From positions 2,703,516 to 2,767,515 of the forward strand of contig OZ220742.1 of NCBI GenBank assembly GCA_965116955.1: 64,000 bases of DNA, in the 5' to 3' direction. Position 1 is the first letter of the stretch. The number at the start of each line of letters is the position of its first letter. A program made the translations under genes and the position numbers. This document shows positions 10,323 through 16,070 of this stretch, piece after piece. Below the pieces are notes generated by a model that worked only from the letters and a program-made list of their open reading frames with translations, made no database searches and was not told the DNA's origin. Origin of the DNA: Thermoanaerobaculia bacterium (lineage in GTDB: Bacteria; Acidobacteriota; Thermoanaerobaculia; Multivoradales; Multivoraceae).

Positions 10323-11558
10323 ATGTCTGGAAAACGGGACGAGCGGATCCTGAGTACACGAGGGTGGAGTGACCCGTTGTTGGTCGCCGGAGTCGCGATC
10401 GTGCTGGTGTTCGCAGCCTGCGCTCCTGTCGCGGACACCGAGGCCGCCGGCTCGGCCGAGCCGGTCAATCCCGATCTGGAGAATCTGGGGCCGCGGGATT
10501 CGGTGCTGTTCTGGACACCCGAGCAGCAGATCGCGGGCTACCGGAACGCGGACCTCATCGGTGCTACCCGCTGGTTCGAGGCCTCCGACGATCCGTATCC
10601 GCTGGAGCCGGCGCCGCGGGACCTGTCGGCGGTGACCTACGAGGTCGAGGGCGAGACCTTCACGGTGGAGGAGTACATCCAGGATCGCCGGATCGCGGGC
10701 CTCCTGGTCGTCAAGGACGACCAGGTTCTGTTCGAGCGTTACGGTCTGGGCAACGACGAGACCAGCCGCTGGATCTCGTTCTCGATCGCGAAGTCCGTCG
10801 TCTCGATGCTCTACGGCGCCGCGATCGCCGACGGCTACATCGGCAGCGTCGACGATCCGGTCACGAAGTACCTGCCCTTGCTTTCGGGCGGCGGTTACGA
10901 CGAGGTGTCGATCAGGGACGTGCTGCAGATGGCTTCAGGCGTCGACTGGAACGAGGACTACGCGGACCCCGAGTCCGACGTTGCGACGTTGCCGGGGCCG
11001 ATCGTTGAGCAGACGAAGTACATGGCGGGGCTCGAGGAGCTCCATCCTCCGGGCGAGGTCTTCAACTACAACACCGGCGAGACGAACATGGCCGGCGCCG
11101 TGCTGAGGGCGGCGATCGGCAACAACCTCTCGACCTACCTCGAGCACAAGATCTGGGGCCCGTTCGGCATGGAGGCGGACGCGAACTGGCTGCTCCACGA
11201 GCCCGGCGGCGGCGAACTGGGCGGTTGCTGCATCAACGCGACGCTCCGCGACTACGCCCGGATCGGTATCTTCGCGATGAACGGCGGCGTCCTGCGCGAC
11301 GGTACGCGGGTGCTGCCCGAGGGCTGGATGGAGGAGTCGACGACCCCCAGCGACGGCTTCGACGGCTATGGCTACCTCTGGTGGCTGGGCGAGGACGGCC
11401 TCTTCGCCGGCATCGGCATCTTCGGCCAGTACCTGTGGATGGACCCCTCGGCCAACATCGTGATCGTCACCCACAGCGCCTGGCCGCACGCGACGAACCC
11501 GGAGTACAGCCGCCACCGCGCGGCCCTGGTCGCGGCGCTCGCGGACGCGGTGCGGTAG
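10323..11558 (+). CDS. Serine hydrolase of the beta-lactamase/transpeptidase-like superfamily (class C beta-lactamase-related), probably a lipoprotein.
   Basis: The 411 aa protein has a lipobox-like N-terminus ...VLVFAAC. The S-x-x-K active-site motif is present as FSIAKSVV, and a YxN-like and C-terminal domain are typical of PBP4*/esterase EstB-type enzymes. Confidence 0.8.
   Translation: MSGKRDERILSTRGWSDPLLVAGVAIVLVFAACAPVADTEAAGSAEPVNPDLENLGPRDSVLFWTPEQQIAGYRNADLIGATRWFEASDDPYPLEPAPRDLSAVTYEVEGETFTVEEYIQDRRIAGLLVVKDDQVLFERYGLGNDETSRWISFSIAKSVVSMLYGAAIADGYIGSVDDPVTKYLPLLSGGGYDEVSIRDVLQMASGVDWNEDYADPESDVATLPGPIVEQTKYMAGLEELHPPGEVFNYNTGETNMAGAVLRAAIGNNLSTYLEHKIWGPFGMEADANWLLHEPGGGELGGCCINATLRDYARIGIFAMNGGVLRDGTRVLPEGWMEESTTPSDGFDGYGYLWWLGEDGLFAGIGIFGQYLWMDPSANIVIVTHSAWPHATNPEYSRHRAALVAALADAVR
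11217..11558 (+). repeat. Left copy of a 342 bp direct repeat, spanning the 3' end of the serine-hydrolase gene through its stop codon.
   Basis: It aligns with 13144-13486 at roughly 91% nucleotide identity by eye (about 30 mismatches). Both copies end exactly at the TAG stop. Confidence 0.8.
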
Positions 11559-11580
11559 CAGGGCCCCGTCGGCGCAGCCT

Positions 11581-12162
11581 CTACGTGACGACTGTTGCAG
11601 AGCCGGTGAGCTGCAGGCAGCCGGCCGGAAGCCGATCGAAGAACAGTACGAGGTTGGCGATTGTCGGGACCTTGGCCGAAGGGGCGAGAAAACCGTGGAT
11701 GTTCGGCATCGCGTGCAGGGACTGTCCCAAGACCTGTGTTGGGGCAGTTGCCGCGCCGGCTTTCACGGCTGGCAGGTGGCCGGCCGGCCGATGCAGGCCG
11801 CGGTGATGATAGCCAAGCCAATCGCCGGTCAGTTCCTGCACGGTCGTCTTTCTTGCCCGTCGTTCTGAGAGCGCGGTGAAGTCGACCACTGTCAAGTTCT
11901 TGAGAATCCGGTACCCGAAGACCGTCCACGATCGCGCGGGCGGTGGCCCGTGAACGAAGCCCGTCGCGTAGGAGCCGTGGAGGGCCGTCGCTTCAAGCAG
12001 GGCGGTTGGAATGTCGGGACCGAAGTAGCGAAGCGCCAGCTTCCCCGAAGCGTCGTTGAACCGGTTCCGGGCGTGCTTCGACGGCACATGGGAGGGATTG
12101 GCTACGGCGGACGGTGCGACGCTGTACCAGGGCTCCGTTCGAGCAAGCGACACTGGCATCAA
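11581..12162 (-). CDS. RES-domain toxin (NAD+-targeting RES family) of a RES-Xre/DUF2384 type II toxin-antitoxin pair.
   Basis: The RES-domain signature reads RNRFNDASGKLALRYFGPDIPTALLEATALHG. The 4-nt overlap with the upstream DUF2384 antitoxin is the standard antitoxin-then-toxin order. Confidence 0.65.
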   Translation of the reverse strand: MMPVSLARTEPWYSVAPSAVANPSHVPSKHARNRFNDASGKLALRYFGPDIPTALLEATALHGSYATGFVHGPPPARSWTVFGYRILKNLTVVDFTALSERRARKTTVQELTGDWLGYHHRGLHRPAGHLPAVKAGAATAPTQVLGQSLHAMPNIHGFLAPSAKVPTIANLVLFFDRLPAGCLQLTGSATVVT

Positions 12163-12509
12163 GAAAACGCGCCGTCTTCAAGCGACGCCAGGACCCCTTC
12201 AAAGAAGGCTCTTTGCTCATCGTCACCGCAGAGAAAGCACTCCGGGCTGAGTCCACCGAATGTGGGATTCGGAGCATGGAGCCAAGCGGAAGCGGCCTGC
12301 TCACTACCGTCGATCAGGGGCCTGGGATGGTCGTTCGTCGATGCCTCAGTCGGGCCTTCCACGCTGAGTTGTTCGACCTTCTCGGAAGCTGCGTACACGC
12401 AGTGCGCCTCGGCGAGGTGAAGCTGATCGGCGTTCCCGGCTTCGAACAGCGCGTGAACGCGTTGGCGGAGGCGTTCGGTAGACGAAGGCCTGACCATGCG
12501 ATTCACCAT
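12159..12509 (-). CDS. DUF2384 (MbcA/ParS-like) antitoxin partner of the RES toxin. The start is uncertain (ATG 12509 or 12497).
   Basis: A C-terminal DUF2384 motif, AWLHAPNPTFGGLSPECFL..GDDEQRAFFEGVLASLEDGAFS, precedes the RES gene. Confidence 0.65.
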   Translation of the reverse strand: MVNRMVRPSSTERLRQRVHALFEAGNADQLHLAEAHCVYAASEKVEQLSVEGPTEASTNDHPRPLIDGSEQAASAWLHAPNPTFGGLSPECFLCGDDEQRAFFEGVLASLEDGAFS

Positions 12510-14937: not shown

Positions 14938-15384
14938 GGACGGGCTCCGGCTGCGCCGAAGAGGCCGGTTCGCACGTCTTCCGCCAACCGAAGAGGCGTT
15001 TCAGAGCGAGCCACGAGGTCGGGGATCCTATGCACCAAACTGCTTTCTGGCGACTTCGGCTCTCTCAGCGACCCTTCTTCTCCACGCGTTCCGGGGCTTC
15101 GCCTTCCAGCTTCGCCCGGAAGACAGTGTCAAGGTGGCGGCGACGGCAGCGTCGACCGCGAAGAGAATCCCTCTGGCTGTCATCGATTGTTCCGGGTTAG
15201 GGTTGCGTGGGTGCGCTGGTGGCTCGCCTCGGCGTTCACCAGGGCCGCGTCGCGCGGTTCGTGTGCGGCCACCGTGGGGCTGCGCCGGCAGTGTACATAC
15301 ACCATGGACGGTTGCCCAGCTGATCGAAGCTCTTGAGCTTGCCCCGGTTTTCTGGTGACGCTCGCCTCGGGCGGGCCGGAGCAG

Positions 15385-15852
15385 GTTCTGGTGGGCCCTC
15401 ATCCGGGAGCTGTTGCCTCGGATGTTGACCATATGGCAGCGGTGCAACAGGCGGTCGATCAGCGCCGCGGCCATGATCTCGTCGCCGAGCACGTCGTCCC
15501 ACTCCTCGAAGCCCCTATTGGACGTCAGGACGGTCGACGCCCGCTCGTGGCGGGCGTTGATCAACTGGAAGAAGAGCACGGCGCCGTCCTGGCTGATCGG
15601 CAGGTGGCCGATCTCGTCGACGACCAGCAGGGCTGGATGGGTGAGCACACCCGGAGCCGGCGCGACAGGTTGCCCGCGGCCTTGGCCTCGGTCTGCGACT
15701 CGGTCAGGAGCCGCCAGCGTGCCGTAGTAGACCTTTCGGCCCGACTCGGCGGCGGTGATCGCCAGACTGACCGCGAGATGCGTCTTGCCCACTCCCGGGG
15801 GACCCAGGAGCATCACATTCTCGGCGCGCTCCACGAGACCGGGCAAGCTCAC
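15385..15852 (-). pseudogene. istB: IS21-family IstB (AAA+ helper ATPase) remnant. It is 5'-truncated, missing about 90 aa, and has lost its native stop.
   Basis: The fragment carries the Walker A box (LLGPPGVGKTHLA), the Walker B box (LLVVDEIGHLP) and FFQLINARHERASTVLTSNRGFEEWD..MAAALIDRLLHRCHMVNIRGNSSRMR. The reading frame runs on about 350 nt past where IstB normally ends. No istA is present. Confidence 0.7.
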
Positions 15853-16070
15853 GGGACTCCGGGGCTTCGCTCCTGAGTGGGGGCAAGGTACCCGCGCGCC
15901 ATCCGTGCGTTCCCCTTGCCGATCCCTTCAAGGGTGTGAGAGAGCTCGGGCGCACGCGCGGGGACGGGCGGGACGGAGCCTGCGCACGCGGCCCGGAGAC
16001 CGGTCCGTGCCGGTCTGTGCCGTTCCCTTGACTCCTTGATTCCAGGACCGCTAACCTCGCCGTCAGTTCA

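What the first reader, a model, noticed from the sequence alone, without database searches (positions are those of the whole stretch)
11217..15900. Low-GC insertion after a serine-hydrolase gene, bounded by a 342 bp direct repeat of that gene's own 3' end
The last 342 bp of the serine-hydrolase CDS (11217-11558, through the TAG) recur at 13144-13486 at about 91% identity. The first about 1.9 kb between and including the copies are markedly lower in GC than the flanks; the low-GC stretch continues about 1.6 kb past the right copy to about 15.05 kb, and the istB remnant beyond that is GC-rich. The right copy is an orphan fragment with no 5' homology. It carries many nonsynonymous differences, so it looks like a diverged or foreign copy, not a recent tandem slip. 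The interval contains a RES/DUF2384 toxin-antitoxin pair, a small ORF, a HEXXH protein plus a membrane protein pair, and a 5'-truncated IS21 istB. This pattern resembles an integrative element that targets the 3' end of a protein-coding gene and carries a replacement 3' end. In this case the element has since decayed, since no integrase or istA is present. Alternatively, a second tandem paralog was destroyed by insertions.
Basis: seen in the sequence. Interest (0 to 1): 0.7.

Follow-up and report, generated by a model that had tools for sequence, protein, structure and literature searches.

The report
Two island versions stacked, leaving a gene stub
The repeated gene end is real, but it marks the seam where two alternative versions of a small toxin-antitoxin and candidate-defence island were joined by imprecise recombination between two core genes of an uncultured acidobacterium; it is not the attachment site of a decayed integrating element, and this kind of event is already known.

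Summary
Positions 11204-11559 recur at 13132-13487 (356 bp, 91.0% nt, 88% aa), and this is the only long repeat in the window. Two low-GC blocks (0.627 and 0.609, against 0.688 +/- 0.017 elsewhere) lie beside the copies.

In 26 related genomes (Candidatus Multivorans and other Thermoanaerobaculia) the hydrolase gene is followed directly by a convergent HupE/UreJ gene. The whole of 11575-~18407 (6.9 kb) is therefore accessory DNA in a variable hotspot, and seven other relatives carry different cargo there. None of 44 related loci has a second hydrolase copy.

The two copies differ as much as orthologues from different species, and most of their differences are alleles that occur in those species. 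Each copy is followed by its own cargo and then by a diverged 3' stub of the same Ala-rich gene (stubs at 12888-13132 and 14940-15151). The first stub joins the orphan hydrolase fragment at a 4-5-nt microhomology.

Best reading: two versions of one variable slot were stacked by an illegitimate, homology-anchored join. No integrase or att core is present. A second strain carries the identical island (11178-18782, 100%) in flanks that differ by 3.9%, so the island spreads by homologous recombination in the flanking genes. This is an ordinary mechanism seen in a clear natural example.

The parts
10323..11558 (+). Intact serine hydrolase gene (411 aa, beta-lactamase/CubicO family). It is a core gene and forms the left border of the hotspot.
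   Evidence: Pfam PF00144, E 7.6e-38. Syntenic orthologues occur in more than 40 related genomes.
11204..11559 (+). Left repeat copy (L): the last 355 nt of the hydrolase CDS plus one base. Its natural 3' tail runs to 11574.
   Evidence: The tail 'TAGCAG..CCCGTCGGC' resembles that of relative L015.
11581..12162 (-). RES-domain toxin gene (cargo A).
   Evidence: Pfam PF08808, E 1.5e-9. Its stop lies 22 nt from the hydrolase stop. Homology to RES cassettes in other contigs ends at 11588.
12159..12398 (-). Xre/MbcA/ParS-type antitoxin gene (79 aa as called in the source record; the ORF is open to 12572). It overlaps the RES start by 4 nt.
   Evidence: PF09722, 24.0 bits against a cut-off of 24.5. 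Gene call. The homologue in L092 is 75% identical at the protein level.
12638..12862 (+). Small ORF (74 aa as called; 110 aa from 12530). Function unknown.
   Evidence: Only a weak DUF1508 hit, E 0.012. Gene call.
12888..13132 (-). Stub 1: decayed 3' end of an Ala-rich predicted coiled-coil gene ('cc'). It has an internal deletion and a frameshift.
   Evidence: tblastn shows 64-77% aa identity to residues ~445-564 of the 564-aa cc protein of L007. In L007, L027 and L036 the cc gene sits between the hydrolase and the FGE-sulfatase gene.
13128..13132 (.). Illegitimate junction between stub 1 and the orphan hydrolase fragment. The microhomology GCC(A)C sits next to (GGC)3.
   Evidence: Sequence comparison of the window, the L007 cc gene and hydrolase copy L.
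13132..13487 (+). Right repeat copy (R): an orphan 3' fragment of a different hydrolase allele. It lacks the N-terminal two-thirds of the protein, including the SxxK motif. Its natural tail runs to ~13500.
   Evidence: The haplotype at positions equivalent to 11388-11431 is shared with the functional orthologues L012, L015, L018, L025 and L028. The tail 'TAGCGGCGCGTCG' matches L014, L008, L010 and L013.
13551..13970 (-). p139, the small partner protein of cargo B. It matches PADLOC candidate defence component PDC-M35B.
   Evidence: PADLOC E 1.6e-12. The pairing with p332 is conserved in L087 and L088.
13939..14937 (-). p332, a HEXXH (HEVGH) protein of cargo B. It belongs to a rare family.
   Evidence: Only 4 clusters among 5.8 billion proteins. 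H181, E182 and H185 are invariant. Two relatives match the PADLOC Lit model only weakly, E ~3e-4 to 6e-4.
14940..15151 (-). Stub 2: a second, more diverged 3' end of a cc-type gene, immediately upstream (minus strand) of p332.
   Evidence: tblastn shows 45-55% aa identity to the cc proteins of L007 and L027. The 29-nt direct repeat 13028-13056 / 15113-15141 is 90% identical.
15391..15852 (-). IS21 istB remnant. The first ~87 codons and istA are missing. The ORF reads on to 15028 through stub 2.
   Evidence: Pfam profile positions 89-235 of 238 and NCBIfam positions 87-231 of 232. No terminal inverted repeats were found.
16071..17378 (+). FGE-sulfatase-family gene. It is part of the island.
   Evidence: Pfam PF03781, E 2.7e-63. 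It is absent from empty-site relatives. Homologues lie at the same hotspot in L007, L027 and L036.
17589..18243 (-). PIN toxin (17589-18002) and Phd/YefM antitoxin (17974-18243). This is the island module nearest HupE.
   Evidence: TIGR00305 E 3.2e-19 and TIGR01552 E 3.5e-7. The same pair is the sole insert in L018 and is also present in L002 and L013.
18408..19910 (-). HupE/UreJ-family membrane protein gene. It is a core gene and forms the right border of the hotspot.
   Evidence: PF13795 in the source record. It lies directly next to the hydrolase in 26 relatives.
11178..18782 (.). A 7,605-bp tract that is 100% identical to a second strain (L090) whose flanks differ by 3.9%. It is the footprint of recent whole-island exchange.
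   Evidence: Pairwise alignment of the window with L090. The last difference on the left is at 11177 and the first on the right is at 18783.

Best explanation
The region between the convergent core genes for a serine hydrolase and a HupE/UreJ membrane protein is a variable hotspot in this clade of Thermoanaerobaculia (Acidobacteriota). In this genome it holds a 6.9-kb composite island, 11575-~18407. The island consists of two alternative versions of the same slot placed head to tail. Version A is the hydrolase 3' end, a RES/Xre toxin-antitoxin pair, a small ORF, and the 3' end of an Ala-rich 'cc' gene. Version B is the hydrolase 3' end, the p139/p332 candidate defence pair, the 3' end of a second and diverged cc gene, an IS21 remnant, FGE-sulfatase, and a PIN/Phd pair. 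The two versions came from different lineages. They were fused by one illegitimate join at a 4-5-nt microhomology (GCC(A)C beside a (GGC)3 run). That join links the cc gene of version A to codon ~294 of the hydrolase gene of version B. The other end of the exchange was ordinary homologous recombination in shared flanking DNA. This is an additive event of the homology-facilitated illegitimate recombination (HFIR) type. Version A kept its complete hydrolase gene, so the gene stays intact and version B's truncated copy remains as a functionless orphan stub. That stub is the 356-bp 'direct repeat'. The finished island then spread between strains as one block by homologous recombination, with crossovers within about 400 bp inside the two flanking genes. 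Shown directly: the repeat, the empty sites, the variable cargo, the two cc stubs, the microhomology junction, the allelic nature of the differences, and the identical tract between strains. Inferred: the order of events, which version was donor and which recipient, and the enzymology (RecA-dependent anchor plus illegitimate end-joining).
For: (1) In 26 related loci the hydrolase stop is followed by the HupE stop within 500 bp, and window 11574 aligns next to 18466. Seven other loci carry different inserts of 0.8-5.2 kb there. (2) None of 44 related loci has a second hydrolase fragment. (3) L-R identity is 91.0%, which is no higher than L or R against orthologues (up to 93.8% and 93.0%). Of the 32 differing sites, 25 have both states, or neither, among the orthologues. 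R's block at positions equivalent to 11388-11431 matches five functional orthologues. Only 5 sites are unique to R and 2 to L, and L and R share only one rare state. (4) Each copy keeps a natural 13-18-nt post-stop tail that matches different relatives. (5) Two diverged cc 3' stubs (12888-13132 and 14940-15151) each lie to the right of one cargo block, and intact cc genes occupy the same position in L007, L027 and L036. (6) At the junction, cc homology runs to 13132 and hydrolase homology starts at 13128-13133, so they overlap on GCC(A)C. (7) The window and L090 are 100% identical over 11178-18782 but differ by 3.9% in 13 kb of flanks. (8) There is a mirror-image case in L002 and L013: an internally deleted HupE stub, 86-89% identical to the intact HupE, lies on the hydrolase side of a SEC-C/PIN/Phd block. 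(9) The RES-Xre and p332-p139 cassettes occur elsewhere with sharp boundaries and in another order (L087, L092, L088). (10) Published precedent exists for orphan 3' fragments produced by HFIR-type displacement in T6SS and Rhs loci (PMC5361080).
Against: Neither parental version was found in any collection. These would be hydrolase-RES-Xre-ORF-full cc, or hydrolase-p139-p332-full cc. Donor and recipient cannot be assigned. The left edge of the inter-strain identical tract (11178-~11204) coincides, within about 50 bp, with the start of the repeat. Generic homologous recombination predicts this only if crossovers cluster within a few hundred bp of the heterology. One relative pair (L010/L018) also shows a divergence change-point at ~11200. 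The model needs several later decay steps: a deletion and frameshift in stub 1, IS21 truncation, and loss of the cc 5' parts.
Confidence: 0.6

Rival explanations
1. A small circular DNA integrated by a Campbell-type single crossover. A 1,928-bp circle carrying the hydrolase 3' fragment, RES, Xre, the small ORF and the cc stub was closed at the GCC(A)C microhomology. It then integrated by one homologous crossover within the 356-bp homology into a genome that already carried version B. This duplicates exactly the homologous segment.
For: The repeat length equals the homology such a circle would carry. The cc-stub|hydrolase junction would be the point where the circle closed. The inter-strain identical tract begins at or just before the repeat start, where crossovers would be confined. 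Recombination between L and R would regenerate such a circle.
Against: No circular or episomal form, and no replication or recombinase gene, was seen. The product is indistinguishable from that of the linear HFIR route. This model does not explain why version B and everything to its right is also 100% identical between the two strains. It also requires a prior illegitimate excision in a donor that has not been observed.
Confidence: 0.15
2. An IS21-associated event brought in the right-hand block. The segment from the hydrolase 3' fragment through p139, p332 and cc stub 2 to the IS21 copy was carried from another genome into the cc gene of a resident version-A island. A later IS-adjacent deletion removed istA, the istB 5' end and the rest of cc.
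For: The IS21 remnant abuts cc stub 2, and its 5' truncation shows that an adjacent deletion took place. IS elements sit at this hotspot in L012 and L036.
Against: No IS21 ends, istA or target-site duplication remain. No cc 5' remnant lies between 15861 and 16070. IS21 is not known to carry flanking DNA on one side only (own knowledge). The left junction is a plain microhomology join.
Confidence: 0.08
3. A site-specific integrative element of the phage 21 / e14-icd type targets the hydrolase 3' end and carries a replacement end. It has since lost its integrase.
For: The gene stays intact and a displaced 3' end lies downstream. The cargo has low GC. The start of the repeat coincides with the start of the inter-strain identical tract.
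Against: No integrase is present in the island or in any of seven differently occupied relatives. Empty sites lack 6.9 kb, not the 1.9 kb between the repeats. No stub occurs in 44 other loci. The right repeat boundary is a junction with another gene's stub. The longest identical run between the copies is 30 bp and no distinct core is evident. The left edges of the inserts in relatives are not at a fixed nucleotide.
Confidence: 0.06
4. The two copies arose in situ, either as an ancient tandem duplication or tandem paralogues with the second copy later destroyed by insertions, or they are an assembly chimera of two co-existing strains.
For: Two hydrolase 3' ends lie in the same orientation 1.9 kb apart. 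Metagenome assemblies can merge strains.
Against: No relative has two copies. The copies are no closer to each other than to orthologues in other species. The junction is identical in two independent assemblies whose flanks differ by 3.9%, and it sits at a 4-5-nt microhomology, not at a long repeat.
Confidence: 0.04

Closest known systems
HFIR-type 'displacement' arrays: orphan 3' fragments in Rhs loci and orphan immunity genes in Vibrio T6SS clusters (Kirchberger et al. 2017, PMC5361080, which also cites Jackson et al. 2009 on rhs C-terminal displacement)
   Same: A conserved upstream gene serves as the homology anchor. New DNA is added next to it, and the previous 3' end is pushed downstream as an orphan. 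The join is illegitimate. The finished arrays then move between strains by ordinary homologous recombination.
   Different: Here the anchor gene is an ordinary periplasmic-type serine hydrolase with a conserved C-terminus, not a polymorphic toxin. The orphan has no plausible function. The cargo is toxin-antitoxin and candidate defence genes. Only one stacking step is seen. A second gene (cc) also left a stub, which shows that two whole locus versions were concatenated.
Phage or island integration into the 3' end of a protein-coding gene with a replacement end (phage 21 and e14 in icd of E. coli; own knowledge)
   Same: The target gene stays intact and a diverged duplicate of its 3' end lies at the far side of inserted DNA.
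   Different: There is no integrase, no defined att core and no recurrence. The repeat does not bound the DNA that is missing from empty sites. The far repeat boundary is a junction with another gene's remnant.
Core-gene-flanked accessory or defence hotspots exchanged by flanking homologous recombination (general concept; own knowledge)
   Same: The position between two core genes is fixed while the content varies across relatives: TA pairs, a candidate defence pair, a methylase, IS elements. One island is identical in strains with diverged flanks.
   Different: This hotspot is small and lies in an uncultured clade. It preserves stubs of both flanking genes in different lineages, and these record additive events instead of replacement.
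RES-Xre (MbcT-MbcA type) toxin-antitoxin systems (Freire et al. 2019, PMC6436930)
   Same: A RES-domain toxin is preceded by an antitoxin with the Xre/MbcA C-terminal toxin-binding domain, and the two genes overlap by 4 nt.
   Different: The antitoxin domain score falls just below Pfam's cut-off. Activity was not tested. This pair is cargo and does not cause the repeat.

Membership tests
Site-specific integrative element with replacement 3' end (phage 21 / e14-icd type) | A tyrosine or serine recombinase gene lies inside the element, next to one att site | tested here: not met
   The ORFs of 11575-18407 were scanned with Pfam or NCBIfam: RES, Xre, small ORF, p139, p332, IstB fragment, FGE, and PIN/Phd (Phd from NCBIfam and the source-record annotation). 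None is an integrase. The inserts of relatives contain no integrase either.
Site-specific integrative element with replacement 3' end (phage 21 / e14-icd type) | The direct repeats (attL/attR) bound exactly the DNA that unoccupied sites lack | tested here: not met
   Empty sites lack 11575-~18407. The repeats enclose only 11560-13131.
Site-specific integrative element with replacement 3' end (phage 21 / e14-icd type) | The same att duplication recurs in independent genomes | tested here: not met
   Each of 44 related loci has exactly one match to the hydrolase C-terminus. The only other carrier, L090, holds the identical island.
Site-specific integrative element with replacement 3' end (phage 21 / e14-icd type) | A discrete identical core at which strand exchange occurs | tested here: inconclusive
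   The longest identical runs are 30, 29 and 26 bp and are scattered along the repeat. No distinct core stands out.
HFIR-type additive recombination / 3'-end displacement | One side of the acquired DNA lies in sequence homologous to the recipient (the anchor) | tested here: met
   Both versions share the hydrolase gene and the syntenic core flanks. Exchange by flanking homology is seen directly between the window and L090.
HFIR-type additive recombination / 3'-end displacement | The other side is an illegitimate junction at a few nucleotides of microhomology between unrelated sequences | tested here: met
   The cc stub joins the hydrolase fragment at 13128-13132, overlapping on GCC(A)C.
HFIR-type additive recombination / 3'-end displacement | The orphan fragment derives from a different allele and not from in-situ duplication | tested here: met
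   L-R divergence is 9.0%, against a mean of 7.8% between relatives. Most differing sites carry states found in the orthologues, and only one rare state is shared.
HFIR-type additive recombination / 3'-end displacement | DNA uptake (transformation or conjugation) and RecA dependence have been demonstrated | not testable with these tools
   The organism is uncultured and known only from metagenome assemblies.
Polymorphic-toxin C-terminal displacement (Rhs/CDI/T6SS) | The displaced 3' region encodes a variable toxin domain followed by its immunity gene | tested here: not met
   The fragment is the conserved C-terminal part of a PF00144 hydrolase, 74-96% identical in amino acids across 44 related loci.
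RES-Xre type II toxin-antitoxin | A RES-domain toxin with an upstream, overlapping Xre/MbcA-type antitoxin | tested here: met
   RES matches at E 1.5e-9, above the cut-off. The antitoxin scores 24.0 bits against a cut-off of 24.5, which is borderline. The two genes overlap by 4 nt.
IS21 family insertion sequence | istA and a complete istB between terminal inverted repeats | tested here: not met
   Only istB profile positions 87-231 of 232 are present. There is no istA and no inverted repeats. It is a remnant.
PADLOC candidate system PDC-M35 | Both components A and B are present | tested here: inconclusive
   p139 matches PDC-M35B at E 1.6e-12. p332 matches no PADLOC model. Its relatives match Lit only weakly, E ~3e-4 to 6e-4.

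The most novel reading that the evidence does not exclude
The island may be a discrete, integrase-free mobile unit with built-in homology arms of about 370 bp, formed by the 3' ends of both flanking core genes, and with a preferred DNA end at the (GGC)3 site of the hydrolase gene. 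The same position (~11204) is the start of the orphan stub. It is also the start, within about 50 bp, of the tract identical between the two strains, and it is a divergence change-point in one other pair of relatives. If this coincidence is not chance, stubs of core genes would act as portable arms. They would let hotspot islands be added to one another instead of swapped, which would be a general route for islands to grow without recombinases.
Probability: 0.1. Interest if true: 0.55.

Novelty: new member of a known kind. Interest (0 to 1): 0.3.

Why it matters
This locus is a clean natural record of how a small toxin-antitoxin and candidate-defence island can grow without any dedicated recombinase. 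Two alternative fillings of one hotspot were concatenated by a single imprecise join, and stubs of the neighbouring genes remain as scars. The finished island then moved unchanged between strains by recombination in the flanking genes. The locus also gives a practical warning. A direct repeat of a gene's 3' end next to low-GC cargo is not in itself evidence of an att site. The other side of the repeat, and the empty sites in relatives, have to be checked.

Tried and rejected
Parental haplotypes. I looked for hydrolase-RES-Xre-ORF-full cc and for hydrolase-p139-p332-full cc. The nearest non-identical RES homologue (84%, L092) sits on a 1-kb contig and is not followed by hydrolase sequence. The next (L093, 61%) lies in an unrelated locus. 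p332 has only four clusters. Two metagenome scans, with RES and with a cc alignment, found nothing. Two viral-contig scans also found nothing.

Native versus foreign copy. Identity to relatives, allele sharing and a 5'/3' divergence ratio did not settle which copy is native. Both copies are about equally distant from all relatives.

Other negative searches:
- tRNA or tmRNA as an integration target: none in the 64 kb.
- Rfam families in 10-19 kb: none.
- IS21 terminal inverted repeats in 15.1-16.1 kb: only chance-level pairs.
- A hydrolase remnant in the spacers of L087: none.

p332 structure. The AlphaFold2 model built from four sequences had mean pLDDT 63, and Foldseek against the PDB gave no hit with E below 0.2. 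It was uninformative. The Lit / peptidase U49 link therefore rests on weak motif-level hits in two relatives only.

Patch exchange. I considered a reciprocal patch exchange (gene conversion) between L and R at 11388-11431. I dropped it because the population is mosaic at those sites anyway.

Full report
**Observation**

A gap-free repeat links 11204-11559 to 13132-13487. It has 32 mismatches in 355 compared positions (91.0% nt, 88% aa), made up of 11 synonymous and 14 nonsynonymous codon differences. It is the only long repeat in the window, and no other hydrolase paralogue is present.

The left copy is the end of an intact 411-aa PF00144 serine hydrolase gene (10323-11558). The right copy is an orphan fragment.

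GC content is low in two separate blocks. RES-Xre-small ORF (11575-12887) has GC 0.627 and p139-p332 (13488-14939) has 0.609. Windows of 1.3 kb elsewhere average 0.688 +/- 0.017 with a minimum of 0.643. The repeat copies and the DNA between the small ORF and the right copy have normal GC of about 0.71.

- RES matches at E 1.5e-9.
- The Xre/MbcA C-terminal domain scores 24.0 bits against a cut-off of 24.5.
- p332 carries a HEVGH motif.
- The istB fragment covers profile positions 87-231 of 232, and there is no istA.

**Source and relatives**

The window comes from a 4.58-Mb metagenome contig. Its closest relatives are MAGs named Candidatus Multivorans, Thermoanaerobaculia, Holophagales or Acidobacteria in the public records. 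NCBI places the genus in Acidobacteriota, class Thermoanaerobaculia.

The flanks are syntenic core DNA. On the left the order is GlnE, P-II, Amt, copper amine oxidase, a methyltransferase, a 358-aa protein, then the hydrolase. On the right it is HupE, NHL, PQQ and further genes.

**The empty site**

In 26 related loci the hydrolase stop is followed within 500 bp by the stop of the convergent HupE/UreJ gene. Window 11574 aligns next to 18466.

Seven further loci carry other inserts at the same place:
- L018 has PIN-Phd alone.
- L007, L027 and L036 have an Ala-rich 500-660-aa 'cc' gene plus FGE-sulfatase.
- L010 has a metallophosphatase.
- L002 and L013 have a SEC-C protein plus PIN-Phd.

In L012 two inverted IS copies flank a DNA methylase gene just downstream of the hydrolase. 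No HupE gene was found in the 10 kb that follows, so L012 is not counted among the seven.

No integrase was found in any of these inserts. None of 44 related loci has a second hydrolase fragment. This refutes the tandem-paralogue alternative.

**Nature of the two copies**

L and R are no more alike (91.0%) than either is to orthologues in other species. L reaches 93.8% against L010 and R reaches 93.0% against L028. The mean divergence of this segment among relatives is 7.8%.

Of the 32 differing sites, 25 have both states, or neither, among the orthologues. R's block at positions equivalent to 11388-11431 is the haplotype of L012, L015, L018, L025 and L028, all of which have intact genes. Only 5 sites are unique to R (4 of them nonsynonymous) and 2 are unique to L. 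L and R share a single rare state. Each copy also keeps a natural 13-18-nt tail after the stop codon, and the two tails match different relatives.

The copies are therefore two naturally occurring alleles from different lineages. It also shows that the nonsynonymous differences are mostly allelic variation and not decay.

**The key extra finding: two cc stubs**

The DNA just left of the right copy (12888-13132, minus strand) is the decayed 3' end of a cc gene. It is 64-77% identical in amino acids to residues ~445-564 of the L007 protein, and it has an internal deletion and a frameshift.

A second, more diverged cc 3' end lies at 14940-15151. It sits immediately upstream of p332 on the minus strand, inside the apparent C-terminal extension of the istB ORF. 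The 29-nt direct repeat found is part of this homology.

In L007, L027 and L036 the intact cc gene sits between the hydrolase and FGE-sulfatase, and variable genes fill the gap between the hydrolase and cc 3' ends.

The window therefore contains two parallel units:
- Unit 1: hydrolase 3' end, cargo A, cc 3' end.
- Unit 2: hydrolase 3' end, cargo B, cc 3' end, followed by the IS21 remnant, FGE, PIN-Phd and HupE.

**The junction**

cc homology runs to 13132 (GGTTGCCAC, as in L007). Hydrolase homology begins at 13128-13133 (GCC.C GGCGGCGGCG). The two overlap on GCC(A)C beside a (GGC)3 run, which encodes Gly-Gly-Gly in the hydrolase and lies in the Ala-rich part of cc on the other strand. This is a typical illegitimate microhomology join and not an att site.

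**Spread of the island**

A second assembly, L090 (ERZ24894577), has the same structure. The flanks differ from the window by 3.9% over 13 kb, yet 11178-18782 (7,605 bp) is 100% identical. The island was therefore exchanged or swept recently as one block. The crossovers lay at most ~400 bp inside the hydrolase gene and at most 375 bp inside HupE.

L002 and L013 show the mirror image of the stub. An internally deleted HupE fragment, 86-89% identical to the intact gene, lies on the hydrolase side of a SEC-C/PIN/Phd block. L002 also has a chimeric hydrolase gene that switches from 42-75% to 92-98% identity at about 11070.

**The cargo**

RES-Xre is a known type II toxin-antitoxin family whose toxin degrades NAD+ (PMC6436930).

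p332 and p139 form a conserved two-gene pair (L087 and L088). p139 matches PADLOC candidate component PDC-M35B at E 1.6e-12. Relatives of p332 match the Lit model only weakly. A structure model of p332 was uninformative.

In L087 the RES and p332-p139 cassettes are adjacent, in another order, and have no hydrolase stub between them. The cassettes therefore shuffle.

**Mechanism**

The most economical account is that two versions of the hydrolase-to-cc slot, from different lineages, were concatenated by a single event. One end was a homologous anchor in shared flanking DNA. The other end was an illegitimate join of version A's cc gene to codon ~294 of version B's hydrolase gene.

This is the pattern proposed for orphan immunity genes in Vibrio T6SS clusters and for orphan Rhs 3' regions, namely homology-facilitated illegitimate recombination (PMC5361080).

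A Campbell-type integration of a 1.9-kb circle would give the same product and cannot be excluded. Which version was resident cannot be decided either. Later decay explains the rest: the deletion and frameshift in stub 1, the IS21 insertion and its truncation, and the loss of the cc 5' parts.

**An unexplained coincidence**

The left edge of the inter-strain identical tract lies at 11178-~11204, which matches the start of the repeat at 11204. One other pair of relatives (L010/L018) changes from 1.9% to 8.9% divergence at about 11200.

If crossovers cluster within a few hundred bp of the heterology, as the right side also suggests, this coincidence is not improbable. It does leave a small chance of a preferred DNA end at the (GGC)3 site.

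**Verdict**

The integrative-element model is not supported. The structure is a new example of a known kind of event, in an uncultured clade. Interest is modest.

Noticed in passing
window 11178-18782 vs L090 (ENA ERZ24894577, 314-kb contig): The whole island is 100% identical between two strains whose flanking core DNA differs by 3.9%. The last difference on the left is at 11177 and the first on the right is at 18783. This indicates recent transfer of the whole island by homologous recombination.
   Followed up: yes
L002 2765-3465 and L013 7308-7933: This is a mirror-image case. An internally deleted stub of the other flanking gene (HupE), 86-89% identical to the intact copy, lies on the hydrolase side of a SEC-C protein/PIN/Phd block.
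   Followed up: partly
L002 536-1729 (protein P0049): The hydrolase gene is chimeric. Its 5' part is only 42-75% identical to the window gene. From about window position 11070 onward it is 92-98% identical. This is a recombination breakpoint inside the gene.
   Followed up: partly
L003 10001-10927 and L004 8796-9722 (protein P0037): The hydrolase gene has an in-frame 309-bp deletion (window 10842-11150, 103 codons). The deletion is identical in two JGI metagenomes.
   Followed up: no
L012 11980-13426 and 16615-18061: Two inverted copies (1,447 bp, 99.86% identical) of a Mutator-family transposase IS flank a DNA methylase gene directly downstream of the hydrolase. HupE, NHL and PQQ appear to be missing, because the luciferase-like and ADH genes follow directly. 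It looks like a composite transposon with an adjacent deletion.
   Followed up: partly
window 11388-11431 (hydrolase codons ~356-370): A dimorphic haplotype block (LGEDGLFAGIGIFGQY versus LSGDGVFSGRGIFAQL) segregates among related species independently of the rest of the gene. The window carries one form in copy L and the other in copy R.
   Followed up: partly
L087 (Logan DRR530893, 2.4-kb contig): A degraded Xre-RES cassette lies directly upstream of a p332-p139 pair (81% and 85% aa identity) in one orientation, with no hydrolase sequence between or beside them. The two cargo cassettes therefore co-occur elsewhere in a different order.
   Followed up: partly
window 13551-14937; L088 8001-9366: p139 and its L088 homologue match PADLOC candidate defence component PDC-M35B (E 1.6e-12 and 8.8e-17). 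The partner HEXXH protein family is very rare, with 4 clusters among 5.8 billion proteins. Only its relatives match Lit, and only weakly.
   Followed up: partly
window 15028-15390: The istB ORF reads about 120 codons past the end of the IstB domain and through the second cc stub in another frame. The called 272-aa 'IstB' protein is therefore a fusion artefact of decay.
   Followed up: partly
L007 3191-5125 vs 5267-7189 (also L008, L010, L014, L015, L020, L021, L028, L036): Two adjacent ~1.9-kb segments upstream of the hotspot are about 73% identical in many relatives. They are probably tandem paralogues in the copper amine oxidase region. The window has no such pair.
   Followed up: no
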